64,000 nt of DNA from an uncultured bacterium (GCA_965602185.1 CBFCYP010000001.1:1413-65412); one strand, 5' to 3'; counted from the first letter of the stretch, positions 20,263-41,531 are shown. Numbers and translations: made by a program. The notes: generated from the sequence alone by a model not told the origin.

Positions 20263-21447
20263 ATGGCCAATGATCAAACACCCTACTTCGCTACCAAAAT
20301 TGAATGTCCCGTTTGCGGCTACCTAAATTCGTTTGAAATTCTAAAGCAGGGCTCCTACACGGAATCCGGTAAGGATACCGATTTCGCTCCCACGGGCAGA
20401 GTCTGGAATAATCCCGCCTTTCAGAGATATAATCCCCTTCTGTATTTCACGGGCACCTGCGGGAATTGTTACTATACCCGTGAGATAAACTCCTCGTTCA
20501 GAAAATGGCAGAAGGATAACGGTTTTCGCACTTATCGGCTTCCGAATCAAAAAAAGGGACATTTGAAGGAAATTGCCGGAGAAGGTAGCGTAATAAAAGC
20601 TCTCGCAACAAATATCGATTATAAGAATTTTCCGAATGAATCAGCCATCATCAAACTGCTTATAGCCATTTACGACGAATTGCTTCTGGAGCGGCCAACA
20701 TCTCTTGACGTGGCCAGATATTACCTCCGTATCGCCTGGATATACCGCGAGATGTCAAGCGGGAAATGCGAAAATATTTCTCCGGCTCAAATAACCGTGA
20801 GCAATATTCAGCGTGAAATTAACCGGCTGAAAAAATATATCGATGGTTTGGGTGATCACATCGAACCTCTCTTGAATATGGTAAATGATGATCTGAAGCC
20901 GATGCTTTCTCAGGATCAATTTCCGGGCGGATTAACGTTCCGAATGGGAGAGGGGATCGATAGTATCTTTGGGTCATGGAGAGAGATCCAGGAGAATATC
21001 AACCGGATCGAATCAGAATTTAATATGGGGAAAGAAGAAATCTGCGATCATGAGAACGAGGATAAAGTCCAGACCGACTTCGGGGGATATCCCGCTTTTA
21101 ACGATTATCTGAGTAAAATTCGGGAAAGCTGGCTGGGCGTTCCGTTAACCGAATTCGGGTCTTTAGACTTCGCGCTGCAATACTATCTCAAGGCATACCA
21201 GAACAGCAAAGAAATCAAGCCGGGGCTCCAGCAGCTCCAGGCCTCATATGTGATCGCGGAGCTTTCAAGACGCGTGGGAAACAATAACCAGGCCATGGAA
21301 TATTTTAGGAATACCTCCAAACAAGCTCATGAGATGATGAATCGGAATAGAAACGATAAGACCGTTTTTGCAAACGCGCAAAAAATCTTCGAAATGTCGC
21401 TGGAACAGGCCCGACTTCTAAAAAAACCAGAGAAGGTGAAAAAATGA
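20263..21447 (+). CDS. Zinc-ribbon (CPVCG...CGNC) plus helical-repeat protein, DUF2225-like, hypothetical
   Basis: N-terminal four-Cys motif (ECPVCGY...TGTCGNCYY) and a C-terminal TPR-like helical region. Its stop overlaps the downstream PilZ gene start (ATGA). Confidence 0.55.
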   Translation: MANDQTPYFATKIECPVCGYLNSFEILKQGSYTESGKDTDFAPTGRVWNNPAFQRYNPLLYFTGTCGNCYYTREINSSFRKWQKDNGFRTYRLPNQKKGHLKEIAGEGSVIKALATNIDYKNFPNESAIIKLLIAIYDELLLERPTSLDVARYYLRIAWIYREMSSGKCENISPAQITVSNIQREINRLKKYIDGLGDHIEPLLNMVNDDLKPMLSQDQFPGGLTFRMGEGIDSIFGSWREIQENINRIESEFNMGKEEICDHENEDKVQTDFGGYPAFNDYLSKIRESWLGVPLTEFGSLDFALQYYLKAYQNSKEIKPGLQQLQASYVIAELSRRVGNNNQAMEYFRNTSKQAHEMMNRNRNDKTVFANAQKIFEMSLEQARLLKKPEKVKK

Positions 21448-22187
21448 AAAACCGCATCGGCGCAAAAAGCGACAATCTCGCCCTCTGGGACAGGTTGATC
21501 CTGACTCTAAAAAAAGACGACGGAAGATCTGAATTTATCAGCAGGGTGGAGAATAAAAAACGGAATTCATACGTTTTTGAAATGCCCGTCAGGCAAAGCG
21601 GTAAATGCAATTTACAAAAAGGAGATGTTGTGGAAGTCCGTTATAACAGGCGCGACGCCGCCTATACGTTCAAAGCGAGCATAAAGGACCTCTTTGTCGA
21701 CGACGTCGGATCGATCGAGGTGAAACGGGAAGGCGAAACCAGAAGGGAGCAGCGCCGAAAATATGTGAGGCTGAATATATCGGAGAGTATAAATTTCAGG
21801 ATATTGGAATCTCCCGAAAATGACGACGTCGGCTTGAGTCCTGAGTTCCAGGGATTGCTTTTAAACATTTCCGCCGGCGGTTTTCTTTTCGAGACGGAAA
21901 AAAAAGTACCGTCGGATTCCCTGCTCATAATTAAATTCAAGCTTAAGTATCATTATTCATTAGAAAACATACTCGCCATAGTCAAACGGTCGGAACAAAC
22001 CGGCGACGGTTTATTTCTGGTGGGATCGGAGTTTATTACCAAAGCCAATAAGGGCGATTTCGGCCTGGAGAGACTGGACGAATATCTTCCGCCCGGAACC
22101 GGAACATTTGATGAAAATCTCCAGAGGCTTATAGTCCAGTTCATTTACAATCAACAGGTGGAAATGCGTAAAGAGGGCAAGCTTTAG
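21444..22187 (+). CDS. ycgR: YcgR-like c-di-GMP-binding PilZ-domain protein (candidate flagellar brake)
   Basis: 247 aa. An N-terminal PilZN-like domain is followed by PilZ motifs RRKYVR (RxxxR) and NISAGG (D/NxSxGG). Located in the flagellar regulon. Confidence 0.75.
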   Translation: MKNRIGAKSDNLALWDRLILTLKKDDGRSEFISRVENKKRNSYVFEMPVRQSGKCNLQKGDVVEVRYNRRDAAYTFKASIKDLFVDDVGSIEVKREGETRREQRRKYVRLNISESINFRILESPENDDVGLSPEFQGLLLNISAGGFLFETEKKVPSDSLLIIKFKLKYHYSLENILAIVKRSEQTGDGLFLVGSEFITKANKGDFGLERLDEYLPPGTGTFDENLQRLIVQFIYNQQVEMRKEGKL

Positions 22188-22188
22188 C

Positions 22189-22746
22189 ATGAAATCAATT
22201 TACAGGTTGTTTTCATCTGGAATATTCTCAGTTTATATTTTTTGTTCAACTGTTTCAGGAACATTGATTCCATCCACGAATATAGCGGTGATTCTGGAAA
22301 CAGAGAAATTCGCATATCCCGATAAGGGCCAGTTGATATTTTCTTCTCTGGAAAAGGAAATGCGTCTTAAGGGATTCATGGGAAGACTCAGAGTTATAGA
22401 AAGAGAGGATCGGCCGGCCGTATCCGGCGAGACCGTGGTTAAAATCACTATCACGAAAAACCGATGGCTGACAAGAAAACTCCTATCCATACCGTATATG
22501 CTGAATCGATACAGAAGAGAATACATAATAGAATCGTTTGTCGAGATCCCGGAAGGAAAAAACGGGATGTCCATAATAAGAATCACGGCGGCGAGTTCCG
22601 CTCGCGCAATCACTCAATATGTTAACAATGATAAATACGATCCCGCTCTTTTTCCAAATCAAATGGAACAACTGGAAATGAAAGAAAACGCCAGAAAGAT
22701 GCTGGCCAAAAAACTCGCGAATCATCTTTTCAATCAACTGAGGTAG
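22189..22746 (+). CDS. Hypothetical exported protein or lipoprotein
   Basis: 185-aa ORF with a signal-peptide-like N-terminus (MKSIYRLFSSGIFSVYIFCSTVSG). No recognisable domain. Confidence 0.45.
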   Translation: MKSIYRLFSSGIFSVYIFCSTVSGTLIPSTNIAVILETEKFAYPDKGQLIFSSLEKEMRLKGFMGRLRVIEREDRPAVSGETVVKITITKNRWLTRKLLSIPYMLNRYRREYIIESFVEIPEGKNGMSIIRITAASSARAITQYVNNDKYDPALFPNQMEQLEMKENARKMLAKKLANHLFNQLR

Positions 22747-22871: not shown

Positions 22872-23720
22872 ATGGAGGAAGCAGTACCTCGAGATTCCGA
22901 CAAAATAGACTATTTCGGTATGGCCGGCGAATTGAAGGCTTTATGCGAAATATCCAAGGCCGTTCAGGAGGCAGATATTTCAGAGGAATCTTTTGAAGAG
23001 ATCTTAAAAGCTGTTGGGAGAATCATCGACTTCAGATCGGGATCGCTTTTTCTGTTTTCCAAGGAAACCGGAAAGCTCGATGAAATATGCACTATCGGAC
23101 ACCGTGTAGATTTAATTAATTTTGTTGAGTTTGATATGGGTATGGGAATATCCGCCTGGGTAGCCCAAAAAAGAAGACCTATATTATTGAATAATCTGAG
23201 AAAGTCAAAAGGCGGAGTTCACATCAGGTCTTTCCTATCGGTAGCTATCGTCTATGGTAACGAAATTATAGGAGTTATTAATCTCGCGCACGACGAACCC
23301 AATGCGTTCACCCGACGGGATTCCAATATTCTCGGAATAGTATCAACCCTCTTCGCGTTGTTATCGGAACGAATCTATCATAAAAAATTCGAGACCTGCG
23401 CCCGCGTGGAGATCGATTCCCTGAACGAACAGTTGAATAAAACCAGGATTGAAATGTCAAAGATGGAAAGTATTCGCGGAACCGGCGATCTTTCGGAATC
23501 CCTGAGCAAGCAGATAGCAAATCCCCTGGCAATAATCGCGGGCAACGCCCAGTTTCTGTTGATGACTGTGAAAAATTCATCCAGTTCGGTTATCAGAAGG
23601 CTTAAGGCTATCGATAAAGAGGCATCGAATATCGCCGCGCTGGCAAGCCGGTGCCTGTCCGGGTCTTATACTGAAAAAGAGGTCTCCGTCGAATCAAAAG
23701 AAGAATATCGGAGAATCTGA
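22872..23720 (+). CDS. GAF-domain protein with a His-less DHp (HisKA-like) domain and no ATPase domain (pseudo-histidine-kinase)
   Basis: A GAF-like region is followed by SKQIANPLAIIAGNAQFLL. This aligns with the HEIRNPLTVIGGHSN H-box of the adjacent kinase, with the phospho-His replaced by Lys/Gln. The protein ends right after the DHp region. Confidence 0.6.
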   Translation: MEEAVPRDSDKIDYFGMAGELKALCEISKAVQEADISEESFEEILKAVGRIIDFRSGSLFLFSKETGKLDEICTIGHRVDLINFVEFDMGMGISAWVAQKRRPILLNNLRKSKGGVHIRSFLSVAIVYGNEIIGVINLAHDEPNAFTRRDSNILGIVSTLFALLSERIYHKKFETCARVEIDSLNEQLNKTRIEMSKMESIRGTGDLSESLSKQIANPLAIIAGNAQFLLMTVKNSSSSVIRRLKAIDKEASNIAALASRCLSGSYTEKEVSVESKEEYRRI

Positions 23721-23736
23721 TACTTTTAAAATAGCT

Positions 23737-25476
23737 TTGAGATATAAGATGAACTTGACGGGTGAGTTAATACGGGATTCTTCGGAAACGGTCAGGCCGG
23801 CCGCTTTCTTTACGCTGGATAAGAATTATTTTATCGGAAATATGGCCCAATACGGTTCCCTGTTTTGTGAATTCAATTGTATAAACGACCTTTTAAAAAA
23901 CAAAAGTTTCCTGCCTCTCGATAATCCCCATGTGAGGAACGCAATTAATAATGCGTTTAACGAAATGCCCTCGCAGGTGCGTTTCGAACATACAATTGGC
24001 GATAGGACATTTCATTTTGATTTATACTGCTTCCCGGAACTGGGGCAGGACAACTCGTCCATCGGCTGTTTTCTCGCCGATAGATGCCGCGACGAGGAAA
24101 CGGCAATATCGTTGCAGACGAAAGTCGACAGGCTCGATATTATCAATCAGGCCGTGAGAGCGTTTGCCGAGACAACCAATCTTAATGAAATTTTACGAAT
24201 AATTCTACTTGCGGTAACCTCCGGTCCCGGGCTCGGTTTTAACCGGGGATTCATTTTTTTATCCGATGAGTCCCGTACGTATCTTCACGGGTGTCTTGCT
24301 ACCGGCCCTTCCTCGCCTGCTGAAGCGGGCGAAATCTGGAAAAGTTTGTCTGAAAAATCCCTTTCCTTGGCCGAAATATTGCGTTTTTACAGAAGCGGGG
24401 AAAGCCCTTTTGACACCTATGTTAACCAGCTGGTAACGTCCTTGAAAATACCTCTTACCAAAAGCTCCAGTTTTTTGAAACGGTCTTATGAGGAAAGACG
24501 AGCTCTGGTTATCGATTCTGTTTCAAATCTAAATGAAGACGAAATATCCTTGAAGAAAAAATTGGAGGCCGAAAGTCTGGCCGTTGCCCCCTTGGTTTCA
24601 CGTGATTCGTGGCTGGGAGTTATCATAGCGGATAACCTTATCACTAATAAGCCGATCTCATCCTCGGATTTGCAGCTTCTGGAAATCTTCGCGCGCTATG
24701 CCTCGGACGCCATCGATAATACCCATCTATACGGCAGGCTCCAGAGAAAGATCGCGAAGCTTAAAGAGGCCAATGAAGAAATTATCAGGACCAGGGAGAA
24801 TCTAATCCGTTCGGAGAAATTAACGGGTATATCGAAAATGGCTCTGGAAGTGGCTCATGAGATTCGCAATCCTTTGACGGTGATCGGCGGTCATTCCAAC
24901 GCGAGGCTCAGAAAAATGAAGGATGATCCTGAAAACGAGAGAATTTATGGCATAATTTCCAAACAAACTGCCCGAATAGAAAACACTCTAAACCGTTTCT
25001 CCAGCATTATTTCCCTGAGCGAGAAAGAAGACGGCGAATTTAATATCGGCGACCTGGTTATAGAAACCCTCAGGACAATGACATCGATTAAATCGGAAAA
25101 GATGCCTATCGTTGACGTCGATGATAAGGCTAAGGACGGAAAGATATTTATCGATCAGGGTCTCTTTCACAAAGCCCTGATGATAATTATTAGAGAAGCG
25201 TCATTAATCGCGGGAGGATTGTCGAATCTCAGGTTGGAAATTAAAAAACGGCATAATTCCGCCATTATATTGATCGGCAGCGACGGACTATACCAAAAAT
25301 TCGCCCATAGTTTTTTTTATGCCATGCGTATCGGGCAGGATGAGTTGAAATCGCAGGAGATGTCGGTCGCCCTCGAGATAATAAAACATTACGGCGGGGA
25401 CCTGGGTATAGGCTCCCCGGAAATATCGAAGGGATGGCTGATCGTGGAATTCCCATTAATCAAGGAGGAAAAGTGA
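23737..25476 (+). CDS. Cytoplasmic GAF-domain sensor histidine kinase (HisKA H-box present; catalytic-domain motifs divergent)
   Basis: No TM segment. GAF region, then HisKA box EVAHEIRNPLTVIGGHS. The C-terminal ATPase-like region has a G2-like GGDLGIG, but the N-box Asn is not evident (ALMIIIREASL). Confidence 0.7.
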   Translation: MRYKMNLTGELIRDSSETVRPAAFFTLDKNYFIGNMAQYGSLFCEFNCINDLLKNKSFLPLDNPHVRNAINNAFNEMPSQVRFEHTIGDRTFHFDLYCFPELGQDNSSIGCFLADRCRDEETAISLQTKVDRLDIINQAVRAFAETTNLNEILRIILLAVTSGPGLGFNRGFIFLSDESRTYLHGCLATGPSSPAEAGEIWKSLSEKSLSLAEILRFYRSGESPFDTYVNQLVTSLKIPLTKSSSFLKRSYEERRALVIDSVSNLNEDEISLKKKLEAESLAVAPLVSRDSWLGVIIADNLITNKPISSSDLQLLEIFARYASDAIDNTHLYGRLQRKIAKLKEANEEIIRTRENLIRSEKLTGISKMALEVAHEIRNPLTVIGGHSNARLRKMKDDPENERIYGIISKQTARIENTLNRFSSIISLSEKEDGEFNIGDLVIETLRTMTSIKSEKMPIVDVDDKAKDGKIFIDQGLFHKALMIIIREASLIAGGLSNLRLEIKKRHNSAIILIGSDGLYQKFAHSFFYAMRIGQDELKSQEMSVALEIIKHYGGDLGIGSPEISKGWLIVEFPLIKEEK

Positions 25477-25829
25477 AAAACATCTTAATTGTGGACGACG
25501 AGGAAGATATTCGTAGCCTGTATGAAAGCGAATTCGAGATTGAAGGGTATAAGATATATTCGGTTTCATCCGGATCGGAAGCCCTTGACTTTGTCGAAAA
25601 TAATTTCAGTCTCGATCTGGTGATTCTCGATATTAAAATGGATGATATGGACGGACTTGAGGTGCTGGAAAATATCAGGACCAGAACTAACAAGGTACCG
25701 GTAATTTTGAACTCGGCTTACTCCACTTATAAAAACAACTTCACGTCCTGGCTGGCCGACGCCTATCTTGTTAAGTCATCAAATCTATCCGAATTAAAAG
25801 ATAAGGTTCGGGAGCTTCTGGCAGTTTGA
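25473..25829 (+). CDS. Single-domain response regulator receiver (CheY-like)
   Basis: DD pair (IVDDEED), phospho-acceptor Asp (LVILDIKMDDMDG), and Ser/Thr and Lys positions. GTG start at 25473 with an AAGGAGGA RBS. The ORF-track 25434 start overlaps the kinase by 43 nt. Confidence 0.8.
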   Translation: MKNILIVDDEEDIRSLYESEFEIEGYKIYSVSSGSEALDFVENNFSLDLVILDIKMDDMDGLEVLENIRTRTNKVPVILNSAYSTYKNNFTSWLADAYLVKSSNLSELKDKVRELLAV

Positions 25830-26194
25830 ATACGGATAAAAAGACAGATCAAAAAGGGATCCTGGATTATTTAGAGGCGGTATCAGGCGAGATTCAGCTT
25901 CTCGCTCTAAATATAGCGGTTGCGGCGGCCAAGTTGGCGCACAACAACAAGATCGGAGTCGAGGTAAATCAAAATCTCTCCAATCTGGTAAATCGGGCCA
26001 CCCAGGCGGTCAAACAGATGAATCAGGTAATAGACGCCGCCAAGACAGAAAAAAGCCCCCGGGACGCATTTAACGATGCCAAAGATGAACCGGTCGATGG
26101 CGGACTCACCGAAAATATCGAATCCGCTATGAGCGATATAATCAGGGATTCGGAAAGAATAGTCCGGCTTCTCGCCAATGTTAAAAAGAGGTAA
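25826..26194 (+). CDS. Small all-helical protein with a single His in an AHxxKxG context: candidate Hpt phosphotransfer protein (MCP-tip-like alternative)
   Basis: 122 aa. The only His lies in LLALNIAVAAAKLAHNNKIG. The gene is wedged between receiver genes with a 4-nt overlap upstream and a direct abutment downstream. Confidence 0.45.
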   Translation: MNTDKKTDQKGILDYLEAVSGEIQLLALNIAVAAAKLAHNNKIGVEVNQNLSNLVNRATQAVKQMNQVIDAAKTEKSPRDAFNDAKDEPVDGGLTENIESAMSDIIRDSERIVRLLANVKKR

Positions 26195-26565
26195 TGCCGA
26201 TGCAGCCAGGAACTGTATTGCTGGTTGAAGACTCCGTTGAGGTAAGAGACGTTGTCGCTGAGATATTAACCCGGGATGGATATTCGGTTTCGATAACCAG
26301 TGACGGCCTCAGTGCATGGAAAATGATAAGTTCACAATACTTCGATCTCGTAATTTCCGATATGGGACTTCCGGGCATGGATGGGAAAGAACTTTTAAGA
26401 AATATGAGGAAAAACTCCATTAAAACACCGGTTTTGCTTACATCAGGAGTTAGAATAAAAGAGAAAATCGGTTGCGGCACCGTGTCGGATTGTCGTCTGA
26501 TTTATAAGCCATTCGAAATAAACGAAATAAAAAATGCCATTTTTGACCTTTTAAAGAAAAAATAG
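26194..26565 (+). CDS. Single-domain response regulator receiver
   Basis: LLVEDSVEVRD, phospho-acceptor LVISDMGLPGMDG, T in LLTSGV and K in YKPF. Confidence 0.85.
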   Translation: MPMQPGTVLLVEDSVEVRDVVAEILTRDGYSVSITSDGLSAWKMISSQYFDLVISDMGLPGMDGKELLRNMRKNSIKTPVLLTSGVRIKEKIGCGTVSDCRLIYKPFEINEIKNAIFDLLKKK

Positions 26566-26663: not shown

Positions 26664-27086
26664 ATGAAAGAATACGTGAATATTCTTATCGTGGAAGACG
26701 AAGCCATGATGCGGAATCTTTTATTGAAAATATTGGAATCGGAAGGTTATAAGATTACTCTTGCGTCTTCGGCGGCTGAGGCTCTCGATAAACTGGAATG
26801 TGAAAAATACGACCTGCTGTTATCCGACGTTAAAATGCCGGGAATGAACGGATTTGAATTGCTTGAGAAAGTGAAAAGCCAGTGGAATGATATGGCGGTT
26901 ATCGTAATGACGGGATATGGAGACGCCTACACTATCAAAGAGGCTCTGATGAAGGGAGCCGATGAATATCTGTCAAAGCCCTTTAAAAGCCATGAGGTTT
27001 CACTTATAGTCGAAAGGGCTTACTGGCGATTACTTTCGGCGAGAAATTCGGCTGAAAAATCAAAGCAACCGATAACGACACCGTAA
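26664..27086 (+). CDS. Single-domain response regulator receiver
   Basis: ILIVEDEAMMRN, phospho-acceptor LLLSDVKMPGMNG, T in VMTGYGD and K in SKPF. Confidence 0.85.
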   Translation: MKEYVNILIVEDEAMMRNLLLKILESEGYKITLASSAAEALDKLECEKYDLLLSDVKMPGMNGFELLEKVKSQWNDMAVIVMTGYGDAYTIKEALMKGADEYLSKPFKSHEVSLIVERAYWRLLSARNSAEKSKQPITTP

Positions 27087-27118: not shown

Positions 27119-27145
27119 ACGGCCTTCAAGGGCCGTTTTATTTAA
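27119..27145 (+). terminator. Rho-independent terminator after the receiver gene cluster
   Basis: ACGGCC-ttcaag-GGCCGT hairpin followed by TTTTATTT. Confidence 0.6.
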
Positions 27146-34401: not shown

Positions 34402-34598
34402 TGAATGCGGAAATTGAAAAATTTTATATATCTGAAAATTCGTATCCGAATAAAAAAGGGGATTACTGGCAGCATAAGTGCGGGTTATTTCATTGGCACA
34501 TTTCCGGGAGTAACGTGAGCCTGAGTTGCCAGGATCCGGATTTGGAGAAAATAACCTGGCCGAATATTGACAGGAAAGAGATACCCGGAGGACCGTAA
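34401..34598 (+). CDS. Hypothetical 65-aa Cys/His/Trp-rich protein translationally coupled between csrA and flgL
   Basis: TAATG overlaps at both ends (csrA stop/start, then stop/flgL start). Without it the csrA-flgL spacer would be 196 nt. No homologue recognised. Confidence 0.35.
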   Translation: MNAEIEKFYISENSYPNKKGDYWQHKCGLFHWHISGSNVSLSCQDPDLEKITWPNIDRKEIPGGP

Positions 34599-36514
34599 TG
34601 AGAATAACCTCAAATATGATAATGAACACGGTGACTCGAAATCTGGCGCTATCGCAATCGCGGTTCTTAAGGATTCAGACCATGGCCAGTTCGGGCAGGA
34701 GAATAAACAGGCCGTCCGACGATCCTATAGGAATAACCAAGGATCTCGGATTCAGATCCGATTTATCGGAGATATCCCAGTTCAGGAAAAATATCAATCA
34801 GGCTCTTTCCTGGTTTAATTTTTCCGACCAGGCCATGGGCAATATGAATGAGCTGATTTCCAGGGCCAAGGAACTGGCGGTTCAGTTTGCCAATGACACT
34901 TATGACCAGAACGCCCGGGCGGCCGGCGCCACCAATATCAGGGACGTTTTCGAACAGATAATCGAAGCCGCAAACACTCAATTCGAGGGTAATTATATAT
35001 TCTCCGGCACGAGAACCGACGTTTCTCCCTTTATGGTGCTTGCGATGGGAGTCGTATACCGGGGAGATTTTGAGCAGATTTCCCTTGAAACGGAATCATC
35101 CTCATATCTCGGAATAAATTCCATAGGTGCAGAATTTCTCACCGTGGCAAGTCGTACTTTGGGCGATGGGTATGATTTAAATCCCGGTATTCAACCGAAT
35201 CTCTGGCTTGATTATCTTCATGGGGGAAACGGTGTCGATCTGGGTGCGGGTCTTTTCAATGTCCGAACATTAAACGGTGAATATGCCATAGACGTATCGG
35301 CGGCAAGGAATATTCAGGATGTTCTCGACGCGTTAAACGGCGCCGGCATCCCGAATTTTAACGCCAGCATAAGCCTGACCGGAAACAGCATCGCTCTTGA
35401 GGATACATCAAACCATTTAATAAACGTCAACACCCCTCTTTCCATGCTCAACGGTGGATTGGGAGTCGATCAAACACCGGGCCTTATAAGGTTCGGCACC
35501 GGCGGCGGAGTGAGCGTGAACGTCGATATTTCCGGATCCGTCACTATCGGTGATGTTATAAACGCTATAAATACGCAACTGCCGGCGGGCGGGATAAACA
35601 ATGTTACAGCTTCGCTTCATCCGGATAAAAACGTGCTGGTTTTAAACGACAACAACGCTGCGCCACTCAATATCATGATCTCGGAGGGTTCGCCCGGAGG
35701 CCAGACAGCATCCGACCTTGGAATATTGGGCGAAATCGGAACCGTGATGGAGGGGGAAGACCTCGAACCGACTCATATACAGGTGGCTGAAAACGCGCCG
35801 GACGAGAATACTGCCAAATATCTGGGGCTTCTTGGCGAATCACAATACGAACAATATGTTGGAGAAGATCTTAATCCCGAACTGGCGTATTTCACCCTGC
35901 TTTCCTCTCTGAGATCCGGAATGGGATTTCCTCTGGGGAAAATCAGGATAGTCAACGGCGATCTGGTGAAGGACGTCGACTTAACGGCTCTGGGAAATGA
36001 TCCCAACGCCACCATAATGGACGTCATAAATCTGATCAACTCATCGGGAATAGAAGTTGAGGCCAGAATAAATGATCAGCATACCGGAATTCAGATTATT
36101 TCCAAAGTTGAAGATAGGTCGCTGATGGTAATCGAGGCGGACGGTGGCCAGACCGCGAAGGATCTCGGAATATTCGGATCGCCCGATATTCTGGGCAATC
36201 TGATGGTGTTAGAGAAGGCATTAGAAAACAACGATGTCGACGAGATAGGATTATGTCTGGAAACCTTCGATACCGCGCTGAATAAGGTGTCGATTGCACG
36301 AGCGGAGGTCGGTGCCCGGACAAACCGGGCCGACATGGCTTCATATCGTCAGTTAACTTTCGAATTACAGATTACCGAGCAACTGTCCAATATAGAAGAT
36401 GCCGATATTGCCAAGGTCATAACGGATCTGGCGTCAGCGGAAGCGGCATATCAGGCCGCTCTCGCGTCCGCAGCCAGATTGATTCAACCGTCTTTAATCA
36501 ATTTTCTTAGATAG
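34598..36514 (+). CDS. flgL: Flagellar hook-associated protein 3 FlgL, enlarged (638 aa)
   Basis: Flagellin-like N-terminus MRITSNMIMNTVTRNLALSQSRFLRIQTMASSGRRINRPSDDPIG and conserved C-terminal helices, with a large central insertion. Confidence 0.9.
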   Translation: MRITSNMIMNTVTRNLALSQSRFLRIQTMASSGRRINRPSDDPIGITKDLGFRSDLSEISQFRKNINQALSWFNFSDQAMGNMNELISRAKELAVQFANDTYDQNARAAGATNIRDVFEQIIEAANTQFEGNYIFSGTRTDVSPFMVLAMGVVYRGDFEQISLETESSSYLGINSIGAEFLTVASRTLGDGYDLNPGIQPNLWLDYLHGGNGVDLGAGLFNVRTLNGEYAIDVSAARNIQDVLDALNGAGIPNFNASISLTGNSIALEDTSNHLINVNTPLSMLNGGLGVDQTPGLIRFGTGGGVSVNVDISGSVTIGDVINAINTQLPAGGINNVTASLHPDKNVLVLNDNNAAPLNIMISEGSPGGQTASDLGILGEIGTVMEGEDLEPTHIQVAENAPDENTAKYLGLLGESQYEQYVGEDLNPELAYFTLLSSLRSGMGFPLGKIRIVNGDLVKDVDLTALGNDPNATIMDVINLINSSGIEVEARINDQHTGIQIISKVEDRSLMVIEADGGQTAKDLGIFGSPDILGNLMVLEKALENNDVDEIGLCLETFDTALNKVSIARAEVGARTNRADMASYRQLTFELQITEQLSNIEDADIAKVITDLASAEAAYQAALASAARLIQPSLINFLR

Positions 36515-36523
36515 GAGGGTGCT

Positions 36524-36994
36524 TTGATCGCGGAGACATCGAGATTCGGTAAGATCGAACACGGAAAATCCGGGATTATCACCATGGTCAGAGGAATATT
36601 GGGCTTTGACTCATATATCAGGTTTATAACAGTAAGCTTGAAAGGACAGGAGCCTTTTAAATGGCTGCAATCCCTTGAAGACCCGGATCTGGCGTTTCTG
36701 ATGATTGATCCTCTTTTCTTTAAGCCCGATTATATTGTCGAAATAAATCCCAATGAACTGGTTATGCTGAAAACCAAAAGTATCGACGATATCGCTATTT
36801 TCGTTCTGGTGTCCATACCAAAAGGACAACCGGCATTGATGTCGGCCAACCTGCAGGCGCCTCTGGCTATTAATAAATCCAACATGAAGGCGGCGCAACT
36901 GGTTCTGGGGGAAAGCCATTACACCACGGATCACTCGATTTTTAAGGATCTGGAGCGGAGACTGGTCGAGACTTCAATGTCGGATCACGATTAA
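36524..36994 (+). CDS. fliW: Flagellar assembly factor FliW (CsrA antagonist)
   Basis: 156 aa; FliW-family sequence (GILGFDSYIRFITVSLKGQEPFKWLQSLEDPDLAFLMIDP). Confidence 0.85.
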   Translation: MIAETSRFGKIEHGKSGIITMVRGILGFDSYIRFITVSLKGQEPFKWLQSLEDPDLAFLMIDPLFFKPDYIVEINPNELVMLKTKSIDDIAIFVLVSIPKGQPALMSANLQAPLAINKSNMKAAQLVLGESHYTTDHSIFKDLERRLVETSMSDHD

Positions 36995-37115
36995 CGCCCG
37001 GCGGGAAAGGTTTTCACGGACCGCTTAATACGGTTCAGCTTAAGAGGTCGCCCGCCTGACGGAAATTTTATAAAATCAAAGCAAATACTAACGACAAAAT
37101 AAAAGAGGCGAAATC

Positions 37116-38828
37116 ATGCCGGAAGCAGTCGAAACAAAAGAAAAAAAACTCATTTCAAGGGACGAGCTGGCGAGACTCTTAGAAAATGAAGATTATTCGG
37201 AGGCCGAGGACGCGATCCATGCGCTTCTGGAACAATCCCCGGAAGATATTGAATTGTTGAACTCGCTGGGATCGATATACGCCCGGCGGGCGGATTATTT
37301 TAACGCCGAAAGTACGTTTCGGAACGTAATCGGCATTGATCCTGAATGCGGGGATGCTTACTACAACCTGGGCCTTGTTCACAGCAAACAGTCCCGCAGG
37401 ACCGAAGCCGTGGAAGATTTCCTTAAAGCGGTGGAGATTAATCCTCAAGACGCCGCGGCCCACAACGATCTCGGCGTGCTTTATCATTACCAGGGGAAAA
37501 CGCATCTGGCCAAAGGTCATTTCATAAAAGCCCTGGAAGGCAATATCCTTTATAAAAGGGCCTTGATGAACCTCTTCGAGGTCTGCTTCGATGCTGATTC
37601 TTATTCTGAAGGATTGGCTTGGGTCGAGAAGTTTCTAAACGCCTCCACCGGGAGCAACAATTCAGACGATACGAATCATGATATAAATCTCGTTTCGAAA
37701 GAAAACTCTATAATAGAAAAAGCGAATTCGGTTCAAATCGAAGTAAAAACGAAATCCGAACAAAAGCTGTCCCCGGGCGCGCTTAAACTCACCAAAAGAT
37801 CAAACTCGAAAGCGGATGATATTTTCTTAAAACATGTCCCCGAAGAACTGCGCGAGAAGAAAACGGGGAAGAATATAGCCATAATCGCCGATTTCAATAT
37901 CGCCGGGCAGCTGTCTTTGCTGTTCAGGATGATTAACAGGTATACGATTCACAAGGCCCGCATGGTAATAATCCAGGACGATTATCTTACTTATGACAGG
38001 GATCTGATCCTCTCCCGGGACGGCGAAAAAGGCCATAAAGAAGCATTGGATATTGTCGAACATGCGGACTTCTATCATATGGGAAGATTTCCCAAGCCTG
38101 TTGAAAGCGTAAACTGGGAAGAACACCTGAAACCGGATAATTCTCTTATACAATATTACGGCTCCGAGATAAGAACCAACTCGGTTCAATTGTACAGGTG
38201 GCACACTCAGAACAGAATTCTCGGGCTTTCGTGCTGGGATTATACCATGCTGGAAAACGCGCCGTTTTTCTACCATACCAATATCATGTGTGATTTATCG
38301 AGAATAAAACAATGCTCCGAGCCTACCGATACAATCAGGATCTGCCACCCGCCCACCAATCGCCAGTTTAAAAAAACCGATCTCTTTCTCTCCGTCGTCG
38401 AGAAGCTCAAAAAGAAAAATTATCCCTTTGAGGTGGAGTTGATAGAACGTAAATCAAACGAGGAATGCCTGGATATAAAAAGCCGCTGTCACATGACCTA
38501 TGATCAGATCTCCGTCGGTATTTACGGTTTATCCGCCATCGAGTCCATGGCCGCGGGCCACGCCGTCCTGTGCGGGATTTCGAACTTCGCCTCCAGCTAT
38601 CATCCGGATAATCCCGTCGTTTACGTCACCGAAGAGAATCTATATGACAGGCTGGAATACCTCCTCAGAAACAAAGAGGAGATTACCCGTATCGGAAACG
38701 CGGGCAAGATCTGGGCCAGAACTCATCATGATCCCATGAAACTCATAAGGCAATATGTCTGGATATACGACCTGGTGATGAACGGACACAGGATTGTGGA
38801 TGACCGCGATATGTTTCTTCTAACATAG
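37116..38828 (+). CDS. TPR-repeat protein with a C-terminal GT-B-like glycosyltransferase domain
   Basis: N-terminal TPR repeats (AYYNLGLVHSKQSRRTEAVEDFLKAVEINPQDAAAHNDLGVLY). The C-terminal region carries a GT1/GT4-like motif (GLSAIESMAAGHAVLCG). Confidence 0.5.
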   Translation: MPEAVETKEKKLISRDELARLLENEDYSEAEDAIHALLEQSPEDIELLNSLGSIYARRADYFNAESTFRNVIGIDPECGDAYYNLGLVHSKQSRRTEAVEDFLKAVEINPQDAAAHNDLGVLYHYQGKTHLAKGHFIKALEGNILYKRALMNLFEVCFDADSYSEGLAWVEKFLNASTGSNNSDDTNHDINLVSKENSIIEKANSVQIEVKTKSEQKLSPGALKLTKRSNSKADDIFLKHVPEELREKKTGKNIAIIADFNIAGQLSLLFRMINRYTIHKARMVIIQDDYLTYDRDLILSRDGEKGHKEALDIVEHADFYHMGRFPKPVESVNWEEHLKPDNSLIQYYGSEIRTNSVQLYRWHTQNRILGLSCWDYTMLENAPFFYHTNIMCDLSRIKQCSEPTDTIRICHPPTNRQFKKTDLFLSVVEKLKKKNYPFEVELIERKSNEECLDIKSRCHMTYDQISVGIYGLSAIESMAAGHAVLCGISNFASSYHPDNPVVYVTEENLYDRLEYLLRNKEEITRIGNAGKIWARTHHDPMKLIRQYVWIYDLVMNGHRIVDDRDMFLLT

Positions 38829-38838
38829 GGAGAATGAC

Positions 38839-39831
38839 GTGATAAAAGGTAAAAAGATATTTCTATCCGGGGGCGCCGGCTTTATAGGTTCCGCTCTCAT
38901 CGCCCGGCTGATCGATCATAATGAGATTGTAATATACGACACCTACGCGCGCCACAGCCTGAACGGCAGAAGATTCGAAAAACATCCCAATCTCACCTCC
39001 TGCCGCGGCGACATTCTCGATTTCAAAAACATTAAGAAACATATTGACGGCACTAATATTGTCATACATCTCGCGGCCATCGCCGGTATAGATACCGTAA
39101 TAAAATCCCCCGTAAATACCATGCGGGTAAACATGATCGGCACCTCCAATATGCTGGAGGCGGCTTCGGGACTTACATCGCTTGAGCGATTCGTCGATTT
39201 TTCCACGTCGGAGGTTTTCGGATCGTATGCTTATAGATCCGAAGAGGGAGACTCGACGTCGCTGGGCGCGGTGGGAAACGCCCGCTGGACCTACGCCGTC
39301 TCGAAACTCGCCGGGGAGCACCTTTCCTACAGTTATTACAAAGAAAAGAATATCCCCACGACGACCATACGGCCATTTAATATTTATGGCCCCGGACAGG
39401 TCGGCGAAGGCGCCGTACATCATTTTATTACCAGGGCGTTGAAGGGCGAAGATCTTATAATCAGGGGCAACGGCGATCAAATCAGGTCATGGTGTTATAT
39501 TGACGATATCGTGGACGCCATCCTGGCGGTTCTTGAGAATGACGGAGCCGTCGGAGAGTGCTTCAATATAGGAAATCCCCGCGGCACGGTTACCATTTAT
39601 GGTTTGGCGCTGGCCGCTATCAGGGTGACCTATTCCAAATCTAAAATCGTCTTTGTTGACAAGGATGTAGTCGACGTCGAGCTGAGGATTCCCAATATAG
39701 ATAAGGCCAGGTCCATCCTCGGTTTTCAGCCCGGGGTGGATCTCGAGGAGGGTTTAAAATTAACAGCCGATTGGTATTATGACAGAATTCATTCGAATAC
39801 CGCTTTCGAAGCCAGCCTTGCTGGATGCTGA
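38839..39831 (+). CDS. NAD-dependent sugar epimerase/dehydratase (extended SDR)
   Basis: Rossmann motif GGAGFIGSALIARL and catalytic YAVSK (YxxxK). Confidence 0.85.
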   Translation: MIKGKKIFLSGGAGFIGSALIARLIDHNEIVIYDTYARHSLNGRRFEKHPNLTSCRGDILDFKNIKKHIDGTNIVIHLAAIAGIDTVIKSPVNTMRVNMIGTSNMLEAASGLTSLERFVDFSTSEVFGSYAYRSEEGDSTSLGAVGNARWTYAVSKLAGEHLSYSYYKEKNIPTTTIRPFNIYGPGQVGEGAVHHFITRALKGEDLIIRGNGDQIRSWCYIDDIVDAILAVLENDGAVGECFNIGNPRGTVTIYGLALAAIRVTYSKSKIVFVDKDVVDVELRIPNIDKARSILGFQPGVDLEEGLKLTADWYYDRIHSNTAFEASLAGC

Positions 39832-40930
39832 TATTGAGTCAGCGGCAAAGAGTATGAAATCGGGCCGGCTGGTCTGCGGCCGGATGGTTGAAACATTCGA
39901 ACGGCAACTGGCCACATATCTAAAGGTTCGCTATGCGGTTTGCGTTTCATCCGGTACCGCCGCCCTGCATCTCGGTTTGCTCGCCCTGGGTATCGGGCCG
40001 GGCGATGACGTTATCGTGCCGGCTTTCAGTTACCCCGCCAGCGCCAATGCCGTGGAGATCTTAGGCGCCAGACCGGTTTTTATCGATTCCGAGCCGAACG
40101 GCTTTAATATCGACATAAGCAGAATTGAAAACAGCATCACCTCCCGCACAATGGCCTTGATGATTGTTCATAATTTTGGATGGCCGGTTGAGATAAATAG
40201 AATTCGCGCCCTGTCCGCCAAATATGATATCCCCGTAATCGAGGACGCCGCCTGCGCGCTGGGTTCTTCTATAGCGGGCGTCAGGTGCGGAAACCTCGGA
40301 AGATTGGCCGTTTTCAGCTTTCACCCCAGAAAGATTCTGACCACCGGCGAGGGGGGAGCGGTGGTTACCGACGATTTCGAACTTGCCGAAAAGATAAAAA
40401 GGCTGCGTAATCATGGTCAGGATTTCTCCCATGGCGTCGATTTTGTTATGCCGGGATTTAATTATAGAATGACGGAATTTCAGGCCGCTATGGGAGTTTC
40501 GCAGATGAAGCGTTATAATACAACCCTGCGGGAGCGGATAACGGCCGCCGATTTTTACAATAAAAATCTAGCGGATATGGATTGTATACGTCCCTGTTTG
40601 CCTCAAGCGAACCGCAAACTGAATTATCAGACATATATTGCCTTTATTCCGGGCGGTAATAGAGATGAAATTATTGATCATTTGAGAGAATATGATATCG
40701 AGGCCGGCATCGGAACCTATTCCATACCCCATACAGCCTATTATTCGAATAAATACGGCATTGAAGAATCCCGTTACCCGGAATCGTTGAGCGCGTTCGA
40801 AAACATCATGAGCTTGCCATTGTATAACGGCATCACCATGGATGAACAAAACCGTGTAATTGAAATACTTAAAAAGTATAAAGCCGAAAAAAAAGGATCT
40901 CGGATTAAACAAACCGTGGAATCATCATGA
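39779..40930 (+). CDS. DegT/DnrJ/EryC1-family PLP-dependent sugar aminotransferase
   Basis: IPLSKPALLDADIESAAKSMKSGRLVCGRMVETFERQLATYL...SSGTAALHLGL and a typical fold length. Overlaps the upstream SDR gene by 52 nt. Confidence 0.8.
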   Translation: MTEFIRIPLSKPALLDADIESAAKSMKSGRLVCGRMVETFERQLATYLKVRYAVCVSSGTAALHLGLLALGIGPGDDVIVPAFSYPASANAVEILGARPVFIDSEPNGFNIDISRIENSITSRTMALMIVHNFGWPVEINRIRALSAKYDIPVIEDAACALGSSIAGVRCGNLGRLAVFSFHPRKILTTGEGGAVVTDDFELAEKIKRLRNHGQDFSHGVDFVMPGFNYRMTEFQAAMGVSQMKRYNTTLRERITAADFYNKNLADMDCIRPCLPQANRKLNYQTYIAFIPGGNRDEIIDHLREYDIEAGIGTYSIPHTAYYSNKYGIEESRYPESLSAFENIMSLPLYNGITMDEQNRVIEILKKYKAEKKGSRIKQTVESS

Positions 40931-40940
40931 AAGGGACATT

Positions 40941-41531
40941 ATGAATAACACCACCCGGTTTAATGAAATCGGTAAGAACACGCAACCGGCATCTACGGGA
41001 AAATTGTCGGATTTGCAAAAAATATTAAAACTGGCCGCTAACAGTTTCGGCAAAGAAAAATATTCATTGACTATTGATTATTGTAGAAAAGCGGTAAACG
41101 CTGTTGACGGAACCGATCAACATAAACTGGCTGCAGAAGCATATTATATCTGGTGTCTGTCATGCTTTAAAATGAATAAATATGAGGACGCCAGAAAGGT
41201 ATGTTATGAAGCGCGGCTGAAACTGGGCAATTACCTCGATCTGGTTTATTTTGAGATTTTAATAGCGGCCGTTAACGGAGAAATTGACAGGATTCCGAAA
41301 TTCGCAAAAAGCTATATAGAGATTTACGAAGCCGCCGGAGACAAATTCAATCCTTTAAAAGAGAAGACCCACGATAGAATCGGCGAAGTCATGTTGATGA
41401 GTGGTCAGGCTCTCGAACAGGTGCAGAAGAAATCAGAAGCTCTGGATATTTATAAAAAATATTTATCTAAATTCCCCGATGATGTCCCCATAAAAGGACG
41501 GGTCGAAGTTCTGGCAAATCAAATAAACTGA
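40941..41531 (+). CDS. Helical-repeat hypothetical protein, paralogous to the N-terminal module of the downstream TPR-GT2 protein
   Basis: ARLKLGNYLDLVYFEILIA aligns with ARHIFGNYLDACFLEFNIY in the next gene. The ATG at 40941 is preferred over 40860, which would overlap the aminotransferase by 70 nt. Confidence 0.45.
   Translation: MNNTTRFNEIGKNTQPASTGKLSDLQKILKLAANSFGKEKYSLTIDYCRKAVNAVDGTDQHKLAAEAYYIWCLSCFKMNKYEDARKVCYEARLKLGNYLDLVYFEILIAAVNGEIDRIPKFAKSYIEIYEAAGDKFNPLKEKTHDRIGEVMLMSGQALEQVQKKSEALDIYKKYLSKFPDDVPIKGRVEVLANQIN

What the first reader, a model, noticed from the sequence alone, without database searches (positions are those of the whole stretch)
22872..25476. Paralogous pair: histidine kinase plus a truncated partner whose phospho-acceptor His is replaced
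The two GAF proteins share a clearly homologous DHp helix (xxIxNPLxxIxG), but the upstream copy has K/Q where H should be and terminates right after the DHp. In the downstream kinase the N-box Asn of the HATPase domain is not evident (ALMIIIREASLIAGG), although a G2-like GGDLGIG remains. This suggests a kinase/pseudo-kinase regulatory pair, or a phosphatase-biased sensor, rather than a conventional HK.
Basis: seen in the sequence. Interest (0 to 1): 0.6.

Follow-up and report, generated by a model that had tools for sequence, protein, structure and literature searches.

The report
Two kinase-less histidine-kinase relatives, flagellar cluster
Two adjacent sensor proteins in the flagellar gene cluster of a Zixibacterium both look like histidine kinases, but one has lost its ATP-binding motifs while keeping its phosphorylatable histidine and the other has lost both the histidine and the whole ATPase domain, so the pair probably passes or removes phosphate on the neighbouring response regulators rather than making it from ATP.

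Summary
ORF A (22872-23720, 282 aa) is a GAF domain plus a DHp helical hairpin. It has Lys where the phospho-acceptor His should be and no catalytic domain. ORF B (23737/23749-25476, 575-579 aa) is PAS-like + GAF + HisKA, with an intact H-E-x-x-N motif. Its C-terminal domain keeps the kinase fold but lacks all four ATP-binding motifs (N, G1, F and G2 boxes). So the pair is not kinase plus pseudokinase: neither protein is predicted to bind ATP.

Both proteins are conserved throughout Zixibacteria in a fixed operon between fliA and flgF: A, B, a response regulator (RR), a small protein resembling a chemoreceptor (MCP) tip, then one or two more RRs. Four related loci keep a canonical ATPase domain in B and have one downstream RR. 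Loci with a degenerate B have two or three.

B's His, Glu and Asn are invariant. A keeps only the phosphatase-specific Asn. My best reading is that B is a signal-gated histidine phosphotransferase/phosphatase, like Spo0B, ChpT or PhyT, and that A is a DHp-only regulator-phosphatase or modulator. This is inferred, not shown. I rate it a new variant of a known kind, of moderate interest.

The parts
22872..23720 (+). ORF A, 282 aa: a GAF domain plus a DHp hairpin. It has no catalytic domain, and Lys (K213) sits at the phospho-acceptor position.
   Evidence: ORF list. Pfam GAF 9e-14 and HisKA 17.4 bits, below the cut-off. AF2 model at pLDDT 81.9. 117 homologues of about 280 aa.
22920..23312 (+). 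GAF domain of A, residues 17-147.
   Evidence: AF2 secondary structure. Foldseek hits to solved GAF domains 4g3k, 5w10 and 3ci6.
23487..23657 (+). DHp-like helical hairpin of A, residues 206-262. K213 (23508-23510) replaces the His. The invariant N217 (23520-23522) is at the H+4 position. The stretch NPLAIIAGNAQFLLM is nearly invariant.
   Evidence: Column counts over 118 sequences: the His column is K40/Q30/H15/R11/E11/D4, and N217 is present in 117/118. hhalign register. Coordinates.
23737..25476 (+). ORF B, 579 aa from TTG 23737, or more probably 575 aa from ATG 23749. Domain order is PAS-like, GAF, HisKA DHp with His, then a degenerate CA-like domain.
   Evidence: AF2 model at pLDDT 78.5. 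Foldseek hits to PAS-GAF-HK proteins and HK cores.
23800..24081 (+). PAS-like N-terminal domain of B, residues 18-111 in the 575-aa numbering. It is the least conserved part.
   Evidence: AF2 strands and helices. Distant homologues carry Pfam PAS hits here. Mean pairwise identity is 0.23.
24181..24723 (+). GAF domain of B, residues 145-325.
   Evidence: Pfam GAF 6.9e-7. PDB 3oov GAF match. AF2 model.
24766..25014 (+). DHp (HisKA) of B, residues 340-422. H370 is at 24856-24858, E371 follows, and N374 is at 24868-24870.
   Evidence: HisKA 31.4 bits. H370 84/84, E371 83/84, and R373, N374, P375, L376 and T377 each 84/84. ThkA alignment.
25030..25455 (+). CA-like alpha/beta domain of B, residues 428-569, without the N, G1, F or G2 boxes. 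The N-box Asn position is E483 (25195-25197).
   Evidence: No Pfam family at E<=10. Alignment with canonical relatives. The N-box column is K31/E27/Q7/N5/R4/C3/D2. dN/dS is about 0.13.
25473..25829 (+). RR1, a single-domain response regulator of 118 aa. Its GTG start overlaps the stop codon of B (GTGA). It is homologous to TrrA.
   Evidence: Pfam Response_reg 3e-24. Best PDB hit is TrrA 3a0r_B at 2.9e-27. Start codon. Orthologues of 117-129 aa are called in L001, L002, L003, L122, L123 and L124.
25826..26194 (+). Small 122-aa helical protein resembling the signalling tip of a chemoreceptor. It is conserved in this position in the loci examined.
   Evidence: Pfam MCPsignal 1.1e-4, below the cut-off. 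Weak Tsr 1qu7 match. A small ORF sits in the same position in L001, L002, L003, L007, L118, L122, L123 and L124, and it has a recorded MCPsignal hit in L001, L003, L122 and L124.
26194..26565 (+). RR2, a single-domain response regulator of 123 aa. It is the least conserved of the three.
   Evidence: Pfam Response_reg 1.4e-20. Mean pairwise identity 0.39 over 13 loci.
26664..27086 (+). RR3, a single-domain response regulator of 140 aa with a conserved C-terminal extension.
   Evidence: Pfam Response_reg 3.3e-31. Mean pairwise identity 0.68.
27119..27136 (+). Terminator-like hairpin followed by a T run, just after RR3. It is the probable end of the operon.
   Evidence: Consensus scan. This is a pattern match only, and the number of sites found equals the number expected from shuffled sequence.

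Best explanation
The window holds a six-gene signalling operon inside the flagellar gene cluster of a Zixibacterium. The gene order is A, B, RR1, an MCP-tip-like protein, RR2 and RR3, and the operon lies between fliA and flgF.

B descends from a ThkA-type cytoplasmic sensor histidine kinase. It keeps its sensor domains (PAS-like and GAF) and a fully intact HisKA phospho-acceptor site (H-E-x-x-N). Its catalytic domain has lost every ATP-binding motif but is still under purifying selection.

Shown:
- the domain anatomy;
- the motif loss;
- the conservation of the proteins;
- the conserved gene order.

Inferred:
- B cannot autophosphorylate.
- Its invariant His is still used for phosphoryl chemistry.
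- B therefore works as a signal-gated histidine phosphotransferase and/or phosphatase, exchanging phosphoryl groups with the co-encoded single-domain regulators, as Spo0B, ChpT and PhyT do.
- The phosphate enters from a kinase encoded elsewhere, through one of the regulators.

A is a paralogue reduced to GAF plus the DHp hairpin. It has lost the His and the adjacent acidic residue. It keeps the Asn at H+4, which in HisKA kinases is required only for phosphatase activity, and it keeps a nearly invariant helix-1 face. I infer that A is a GAF-regulated phosphatase or sequestering partner for one of the regulators, or a DHp-level modulator of B.
For: Anatomy and motif loss:
- Pfam finds HisKA but no HATPase_c in B, even at E<=10 on the isolated C-terminal domain. 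The relative P0093 scores 77 bits for HATPase_c.
- The N, G1, F and G2 boxes are all absent in alignments with canonical relatives and with ThkA.
- The N-box column varies among 84 homologues: K31/E27/Q7/N5.
- The fold is kept (AF2 pLDDT 78.5; Foldseek matches HK cores including RetS, GacS, ZraS and CpxA).
- dN/dS of the CA-like domain is about 0.13.

The phospho-acceptor site is still used:
- H370 is present in 84/84 sequences, E371 in 83/84 and N374 in 84/84, down to 31% overall identity.
- In CrdS, H371A and E372A keep phosphatase activity and only N375A loses it (PMC3510030). Invariant H and E therefore argue for His phosphorylation, not phosphatase activity alone.

Partners:
- Three regulators with intact acid pocket, Asp, Thr/Ser and Lys follow B. 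RR1 is translationally coupled to B.
- The best solved relatives of B and RR1 are the cognate pair ThkA and TrrA.
- Spo0F ranks high for all three regulators.

Co-variation:
- All four loci with a canonical B (L003, L115, L122, L123) have one downstream regulator.
- Loci with a degenerate B and enough flanking sequence have two or three.

No kinase nearby: no other kinase or CheA was found among the 38 ORFs of the 64-kb window that I scanned with Pfam, which include every long plus-strand ORF.

Precedent: PhyT, Spo0B and ChpT are kinase-derived phosphotransferases with degenerate catalytic domains (PMC5898713; PMC3433190).

ORF A:
- The His column is K/Q/H/R/E/D, while N217 is present in 117/118 sequences and NPLAIIAGNAQFL is nearly invariant.
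- The His is present in some members of all three major clades and absent in others. It is therefore dispensable and was lost repeatedly.
Against: - No biochemistry exists for any member, and all are from uncultured Zixibacteria.
- No phosphodonor has been identified.
- Loss of consensus motifs predicts loss of ATP binding but does not prove it.
- B shows no sequence similarity to Spo0B or ChpT. They do not appear in the PDB sequence search or among the 50 Foldseek matches listed. The resemblance is one of logic, not descent.
- The correlation with regulator number rests on only four canonical loci, and the clades are not independent samples.
- A could act purely by binding. Its Asn, Pro and helix face might be conserved for dimerisation or for contact with B rather than for catalysis.
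- Locus L123 has a canonical B and no A, so A is not essential to the core module.
Confidence: 0.5

Rival explanations
1. A and B act as a heteromeric DHp-DHp pair, in the manner of RetS and GacS. A, which has no His and no CA domain, inserts into or caps the B dimer and so gates whatever B does. The two different GAF domains would integrate two signals. This reading can coexist with the best explanation.
For: A lies immediately upstream of B in every locus where the flank is available, in all three clades. The two proteins are homologous over GAF+DHp. A's helix 1 is almost invariant, as expected for a protein-protein interface. RetS-GacS DHp complexes are among the fold matches for B (7n0e), and their mechanism is documented (PMC8498467, PMC5992135; listed).
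Against: No complex prediction could be run. The helix-1 residues of A and B differ markedly (NPLAIIAGNAQFLLM against NPLTVIGGHSNARLR). L123 lacks A. A's invariance could equally reflect binding to a conserved regulator: RR1 and RR3 show 68-70% mean pairwise identity.
Confidence: 0.25
2. B is phosphorylated in trans on H370 by the catalytic domain of another, unlinked histidine kinase. That would make a split or heterodimeric kinase in the manner of CheA3/CheA4, after which B acts as an ordinary phosphodonor to RR1-3.
For: The invariant H and E fit a site that accepts phosphate from ATP through a CA domain. No CA domain is available in cis, nor in any ORF of the window that was scanned. This reading draws on established knowledge of the Rhodobacter sphaeroides CheA3/CheA4 system, from memory, not tested here.
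Against: No candidate partner kinase is linked to the operon in any degenerate-B locus examined. It does not explain why extra regulators accompany the degeneration. It would also require a second DHp-compatible kinase to be conserved across the phylum.
Confidence: 0.12
3. Both proteins are pure pseudokinase scaffolds of the DivL type. They read the phosphorylation state of the regulators by binding them, and pass that information to the flagellar machinery or to the MCP-tip-like protein by protein contacts alone, with no phosphoryl transfer through B.
For: DivL is a precedent for a kinase repurposed as a sensor of RR~P (PMC4211667, listed). The degenerate CA domain is kept under purifying selection. 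The flagellar setting and the conserved MCP-tip-like partner point to protein-protein outputs.
Against: B's H370 and E371 are invariant across 84 sequences, whereas A, which plausibly is such a binder, has lost both freely. In DivL the His is replaced.
Confidence: 0.13
4. B is still a working autokinase that binds ATP in a non-canonical way.
For: The fold of the domain is retained, and several residues are invariant (D469, E543, Y548) or nearly so (G550, G553).
Against: The invariant residues are the same structural positions that canonical relatives conserve (D before the N-box helix; EII..HGG after G2). The Mg-binding Asn column is variable. The adenine-contacting Asp of G1 is deleted or absent. 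The glycine-rich lid motif is gone. No Pfam HATPase_c signal appears at E<=10.
Confidence: 0.04

Closest known systems
ThkA/TrrA two-component pair of Thermotoga maritima (PDB 3a0r)
   Same: It is the best solved relative of both partners. B matches ThkA over the DHp and the start of the CA domain (E 1.7e-10), with a near-identical HEIRNP(L/I)T(V/I)IGG motif. RR1 matches TrrA (E 2.9e-27). Both systems are a cytoplasmic sensor followed by a single-domain regulator.
   Different: In the ThkA alignment the N-box reads LINLVQNAIEAT, whereas B has Glu at the Asn position and lacks G1, F and G2. B also has a GAF domain, the extra partner A and two further regulators.
Dimeric histidine phosphotransferases derived from kinases: Spo0B (Bacillus), ChpT (Caulobacter), PhyT (Sphingomonas)
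   Same: Each has a DHp hairpin with a phosphorylatable His and a C-terminal domain that resembles a CA domain but is degenerate. They shuttle phosphate between receiver domains, including single-domain regulators (Spo0F, SdrG) (PMC5898713; PMC3433190).
   Different: No sequence relationship to B was detected. B retains the full HisKA H-E-x-x-N signature. B carries PAS-like and GAF sensor domains, which from my own knowledge Spo0B and ChpT lack; this was not tested here. B's phosphotransfer activity is untested.
DivL-type pseudo-histidine kinases (also PsmA of Streptomyces)
   Same: These are kinase-like proteins that have lost catalytic competence and act through protein contacts with regulators or other kinases (PMC4211667, PMC12963549; listed).
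   Different: DivL replaces the His but, from my own knowledge, keeps a CA domain. A replaces the His and has no CA domain at all. B keeps the His and has a degenerate CA domain.
RetS-GacS multikinase network of Pseudomonas aeruginosa
   Same: One kinase-like protein modulates another through DHp-DHp contact (PMC8498467, PMC5992135; listed). RetS and GacS kinase regions are among the structural matches to B.
   Different: From my own knowledge, RetS and GacS are large membrane hybrid kinases that are not encoded side by side. An A-B contact has not been tested.
Phosphatase-only bacteriophytochrome DrBphP
   Same: It has a sensor-PAS/GAF-plus-HK architecture whose output is dephosphorylation of the regulator rather than kinase activity (PMC8292422, listed). 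A full-length bacteriophytochrome is the top Foldseek match for B (9eut).
   Different: The structural match reflects architecture only (TM about 0.25). I looked for no PHY domain or bilin-binding evidence in B.

Membership tests
Functional sensor histidine kinase (HisKA + HATPase_c): ORF B | HisKA/DHp domain with a conserved phospho-acceptor His | tested here: met
   Pfam HisKA 31.4 bits, above the 26.9 cut-off. H370 is present in 84/84 homologues.
Functional sensor histidine kinase (HisKA + HATPase_c): ORF B | HATPase_c (Bergerat-fold ATPase) domain recognisable by profile | tested here: not met
   No Pfam family at E<=10 for the C-terminal 159 aa. The positive control P0093 scores 77.1 bits.
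Functional sensor histidine kinase (HisKA + HATPase_c): ORF B | N-box Asn, G1 DxGxG, F box and G2 GxGxG ATP-binding motifs | tested here: not met
   Alignments with canonical relatives and ThkA give N to E483, G1 to GSDGL with a deletion, and G2 to SQEMSV. The N-box column is variable.
Functional sensor histidine kinase (HisKA + HATPase_c): ORF B | ATP-dependent autophosphorylation | not testable with these tools
   This needs purified protein and [gamma-32P]ATP.
HisKA-domain protein: ORF A | Profile match to HisKA above the gathering score | tested here: not met
   17.4 bits against a cut-off of 26.9. Homology to B's DHp is nevertheless supported by hhalign (96%, E 4e-9) and by the helical hairpin in the AF2 model.
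HisKA-domain protein: ORF A | Phospho-acceptor His in helix 1 | tested here: not met
   K213 aligns with B's H370. The family column is K40/Q30/H15/R11/E11/D4.
HisKA-domain protein: ORF A | Thr/Asn at H+4, required for phosphatase activity in HisKA kinases | tested here: met
   N217 is present in 117/118 sequences. The role of this position is taken from CrdS and HK853 mutagenesis (PMC3510030). Actual phosphatase activity was not tested.
Kinase-derived dimeric histidine phosphotransferase (Spo0B/ChpT/PhyT kind): ORF B | DHp hairpin with a His, plus a CA-like domain that lacks ATP-binding motifs | tested here: met
Kinase-derived dimeric histidine phosphotransferase (Spo0B/ChpT/PhyT kind): ORF B | Sequence homology to Spo0B, ChpT or PhyT | tested here: not met
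   Neither Spo0B nor ChpT appears among the PDB sequence hits at E<=1 or among the 50 Foldseek matches listed. The relationship is one of analogy, or of independent origin from a kinase.
Kinase-derived dimeric histidine phosphotransferase (Spo0B/ChpT/PhyT kind): ORF B | Reversible phosphotransfer RR~P to His to a second RR | not testable with these tools
   This needs in vitro phosphotransfer with RR1-3. The only support is indirect: invariant H/E, and two or three co-encoded single-domain regulators.
DivL-type pseudokinase: ORF A | His replaced while the CA domain is retained | tested here: not met
   The His is replaced (K213), but no CA domain exists. The protein ends 20 residues after DHp helix 2.
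RetS/GacS-type kinase-kinase heteromer: A with B | Direct DHp-DHp contact between the two proteins | not testable with these tools
   Only monomer prediction was available. Conserved adjacency is suggestive only.

The most novel reading that the evidence does not exclude
Zixibacteria run a kinase-less phosphorelay hub inside their flagellar gene cluster. It comprises a histidine phosphotransferase that, unlike Spo0B or ChpT, is itself gated by PAS and GAF sensor domains, and a His-less, DHp-only, GAF-gated phosphatase. The arrangement would have arisen from an ordinary ThkA/TrrA-type two-component system, possibly twice independently. Each time, the ATP site was lost together with the appearance of extra single-domain regulators. 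Signal integration would then happen at the phosphotransfer step rather than at the kinase.
Probability: 0.3. Interest if true: 0.7.

Novelty: new variant of a known kind. Interest (0 to 1): 0.5.

Why it matters
Kinase-derived proteins that no longer make phosphate but move, remove or read it are known from only a handful of studied cases: Spo0B, ChpT, PhyT, DivL and RetS. This locus offers a natural series within one phylum.

- Some loci keep the canonical kinase with one regulator.
- Others have the ATP-site-dead version with two or three regulators.
- A DHp-only partner has lost its His repeatedly.

The series could show how a two-component system turns into a phosphorelay or sink network. 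It could also show whether sensor domains can gate a phosphotransfer step. Because the module sits between fliA and the rod genes, next to PilZ/YcgR-like, DUF2225 and (in relatives) CsrA/FliW genes, it is also a candidate regulator of flagellar assembly or motor behaviour in an uncultured phylum. The proteins are soluble and small enough for direct biochemistry.

Tried and rejected
The back-translated motifs (AHEIRNPLT, GLGFNRGF) are shared by many kinases, so only three Zixibacterial loci came back. The hits from other phyla (L006-L021) showed no separate A-like ORF and I did not pursue them.
- The whole-library profile search with the A family was swamped by giant multi-GAF proteins. It said nothing useful about A-like proteins outside the phylum.
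- NCBIfam had no model near its cut-off for A, B, the MCP-tip-like protein, or the 185-aa and 128-aa neighbours.
- Foldseek on the A model returned only GAF domains, with no informative match for the DHp hairpin.
- I looked by eye for a sigma-28-type promoter in the 125-nt gap upstream of A. The spacing did not fit the consensus, so I make no claim.
- The sigma-70 and terminator scans were not enriched enough over shuffled sequence to carry weight.
- I considered whether B is a decaying pseudogene-like remnant. I rejected this because full-length orthologues exist in more than 80 clusters and the CA-like domain has dN/dS of about 0.13.
- I considered B as a bacteriophytochrome, its top Foldseek hit. 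The match reflects domain order only (TM about 0.25), so I rejected it.
- The neighbour-joining tree suggests two independent degenerations. The key node has only 70% bootstrap support and the deeper nodes below it only 22-49%, so I give this as tentative.
Full report
**What is at the coordinates**

Two same-strand ORFs fill 22872-25476.

ORF A (22872-23720, 282 aa) has a good ribosome-binding site (GGAG) before its ATG. ORF B is listed from TTG 23737 (579 aa). Every database homologue starts at MNLTGE, which is ATG 23749 and gives 575 aa. I use the 575-aa numbering for B throughout.

Pfam gives GAF plus a sub-threshold HisKA match for A. For B it gives GAF plus HisKA above threshold, and nothing in the last 150 residues.

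**Checking the observation**

The two protein families are homologous over GAF+DHp. A profile-profile comparison gives 96% probability, E 4e-9 and 254 aligned columns. In that alignment A's K213 lies opposite B's H370.

The AlphaFold2 model of A (pLDDT 81.9) shows a GAF domain, a long connecting helix, a helical hairpin (206-232 and 238-262) and a disordered tail. A really does stop after the DHp.

The model of B (pLDDT 78.5) shows a PAS-like domain, a GAF domain, a DHp hairpin and an alpha/beta domain at 428-569. Foldseek matches it to PAS-GAF-kinase proteins and to kinase cores such as ZraS, CpxA, GacS and RetS.

The best solved sequence relative of B is ThkA of Thermotoga maritima (3a0r_A, E 1.7e-10). 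In that alignment ThkA's LINLVQNAIEAT lies over B's ALMIIIREASLI, so the Mg-ATP-binding Asn is Glu in B.

Aligning B with relatives that do carry HATPase_c shows the whole picture.

| Motif | Canonical relatives | Window's B |
|---|---|---|
| N box | NIFRNA | IIIREA |
| G1 | KDTGFGI | GSDGL, with a two-residue gap |
| F box | FDAFFTTK | FAHSFFYAMR |
| G2 | GLGLT | SQEMSV |

It is not evidence of a remaining ATP lid.

The isolated C-terminal 159 residues hit no Pfam family even at E<=10. P0093 scores 77 bits for HATPase_c.

**Organism and conservation**

The closest homologues are from Candidatus Zixiibacteriota metagenome-assembled genomes (89-91% identity).

B has about 90 homologue clusters of about 575 aa, down to about 34% identity. 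All have HisKA and none has HATPase_c. More distant Zixibacterial relatives (P0092-P0103, P0110) have HATPase_c. A further clade (P0104-P0113, locus L007) is degenerate in a different way.

Among 84 members of the window's clade:
- H370 is present in 84/84 sequences, E371 in 83/84, and R373, N374, P375, L376 and T377 each in 84/84.
- The N-box Asn column is K31/E27/Q7/N5/R4/C3/D2.
- Mean pairwise identity is 0.63 for the DHp, 0.55 for GAF, 0.38 for the CA-like domain and 0.23 for the PAS-like domain.

Against the 80%-identical orthologue in L101, dN/dS of the CA-like domain is about 0.13 (dS is close to saturation). The domain is maintained, not decaying.

A has 117 full-length homologues of 255-310 aa. 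All are GAF plus DHp only.
- The His column is K40/Q30/H15/R11/E11/D4.
- N217 (the H+4 position) is present in 117/118 sequences.
- I215 and P218 are strongly conserved.
- The stretch NPLAIIAGNAQFLLM is almost invariant.

Members with LNHEINNPL occur in all three major clades: L007 and L124; L102, L104, L119 and L120; and L115. Members without His also occur in several clades. The His therefore looks ancestral and repeatedly lost, which means it is dispensable for A.

**Context**

The window is one large flagellar cluster. In order it holds fliK, flgE, fliM, fliN, fliP, fliR, flhB, flhA, flhF, a probable flhG, fliA, a 128-aa ORF, a DUF2225 protein, a PilZ/YcgR-like protein and a 185-aa ORF. 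Then come A, B, RR1, a 122-aa protein resembling a chemoreceptor (MCP) tip, RR2 and RR3. After those come flgF, flgG, flgA, flgH, flgI, flgJ, flgK, a flagellin-family gene that is probably flgL, a probable glycosylation island, flagellin and fliD.

No CheA or other kinase was found among the ORFs I scanned, which include every long plus-strand ORF of the 64 kb.

RR1 most likely starts at GTG 25473, overlapping B's stop codon as GTGA. A terminator-like hairpin follows RR3. All three regulators have the usual acid pocket, Asp, Thr/Ser and Lys.

RR1's best solved relative is TrrA (3a0r_B, 2.9e-27), the partner of ThkA. Spo0F ranks next for RR1 and near the top for RR3.

**Synteny survey**

The order FlhF, FlhG, FliA, two small ORFs, DUF2225, PilZ, one ORF, A, B, RR, MCP-like, RR, RR, FlgF recurs at 45% and 34% identity of B (L001, L002). 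It also recurs in the deep clade (L007, L124).

In 38 metagenome loci recovered with the A family, A lies directly upstream of B wherever the contig allows.

| State of B | Loci | Regulators downstream |
|---|---|---|
| Canonical ATPase domain | L003, L115, L122, L123 | One RR and the MCP-like ORF, then FlgN (L122, L123), CsrA and FliW; L115 was checked only for its RR count |
| Degenerate | 13 loci in the survey, plus L007 and L124 | Three |
| Degenerate | L118 | Two |

L123 has a canonical B and no A.

A neighbour-joining tree on GAF+DHp alone groups the window's clade with the P0073 clade (99% bootstrap). It groups the canonical clade with the other degenerate clade (70%). That would mean two independent losses of the ATP site. 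The support is only moderate.

**Mechanism**

*Shown:* the domain anatomy, the motif loss, purifying selection, and the conserved operon.

*Inferred:*

1. B cannot bind ATP and therefore cannot autophosphorylate.
2. B's His is still used for phosphoryl chemistry. In the HisKA kinase CrdS, H371A keeps most phosphatase activity, E372A keeps all of it, and only N375A abolishes it (PMC3510030). A protein selected only as a phosphatase would not need an invariant H and E. A shows what relaxed selection on those two positions looks like.
3. The phosphate on B must therefore come from a regulator (reverse transfer) or from a foreign catalytic domain. Kinase-derived phosphotransferases with degenerate catalytic domains are an established kind: Spo0B, ChpT and PhyT. 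PhyT takes phosphate from the single-domain regulator SdrG and passes it to PhyR (PMC5898713; PMC3433190). The extra regulators that accompany a degenerate B fit a relay or sink layout.
4. A keeps exactly the residues that CrdS needs for phosphatase activity (I at H+2, N at H+4, P at H+5) and has lost those needed only for kinase activity. My best guess is a GAF-gated, DHp-only phosphatase or sequestering partner for one regulator. A DHp-level modulator of B, in the manner of RetS and GacS, is a live alternative (PMC8498467, listed).

**Comparison and novelty**

B and RR1 are homologous to ThkA and TrrA, but B fails the defining ATPase features of a kinase. It works like the Spo0B/ChpT/PhyT kind without being related to them by sequence. 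Unlike Spo0B and ChpT, as far as I know, it carries sensor domains.

A resembles DivL in having lost the His but differs in having no catalytic domain. I found no paper on these Zixibacterial proteins.

I rate the finding a new variant of a known kind. The individual ideas are known: pseudokinase, kinase-derived phosphotransferase, kinase-kinase modulation. Three things appear not to have been described:
- the combination of the two proteins;
- the fixed placement in a flagellar cluster;
- the natural series running from a canonical to a degenerate B.

**Limits**

Everything about activity is inference from sequence. The phosphodonor is unknown. Only monomer models could be made. The regulator-number correlation rests on four canonical loci. 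The tree is a simple distance tree.

Noticed in passing
window 25826-26194 (+): A 122-aa all-helical protein whose segment EIQLLALNIAVAAAKLA resembles the highly conserved signalling tip of methyl-accepting chemotaxis proteins. Pfam MCPsignal gives E 1.1e-4, below the cut-off, and Tsr 1qu7 gives E 0.054. A small ORF lies between RR1 and the next gene in the loci examined, including those with a canonical B. It may be a mini-receptor mimic or the output partner of RR1.
   Followed up: partly
window 20263-22746 (+): Three genes always precede the A-B pair: a DUF2225 protein (394 aa), a PilZ/YcgR-like protein with a PilZN-related domain (247 aa), and a 185-aa protein with a hydrophobic N-terminus and no family match. 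They suggest c-di-GMP input to the same flagellar control region. In locus L003 a 509-aa protein with a weak HisKA hit takes the place of DUF2225. In L123 an extra 392-aa kinase lies between fliA and DUF2225.
   Followed up: partly
L003 9886-11048; L122 8351-11795; L123 7923-9396: In loci with a canonical B, the module is followed by csrA and fliW, preceded by flgN in L122 and L123. These encode a post-transcriptional flagellin control pair. In the window, rod genes follow instead. The signalling module therefore sits at different junctions of the flagellar regulon in different Zixibacteria.
   Followed up: no
window 34598-46838 (+): A probable flagellin-glycosylation island lies between a 638-aa flagellin-family gene (probably flgL) and an unusually long 751-aa flagellin. 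It holds TPR proteins, an NAD-dependent epimerase/dehydratase, a DegT-type aminotransferase and a 935-aa TPR-glycosyltransferase fusion.
   Followed up: no
window 50836-51732 (+): An HDOD-domain protein (298 aa) is encoded after fliD and three small ORFs. HDOD proteins are poorly understood signalling components, often linked to motility.
   Followed up: no
window 25473-25476: The GTG start of RR1 overlaps the TGA stop of B (GTGA). This suggests translational coupling and a fixed B:RR1 stoichiometry. The mechanical ORF list instead offers an upstream ATG at 25434, which is probably not used.
   Followed up: partly
L002 5665-6105: One lineage (P0089, GCA_037441845.1) has a fourth single-domain response regulator immediately upstream of A. 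It also has a FapA-domain protein after RR3.
   Followed up: no
window 2001-4000: G+C drops to 0.41 here, against 0.54 in the first 2 kb and about 0.47 on average. The region overlaps the start of the fliK-like gene.
   Followed up: no
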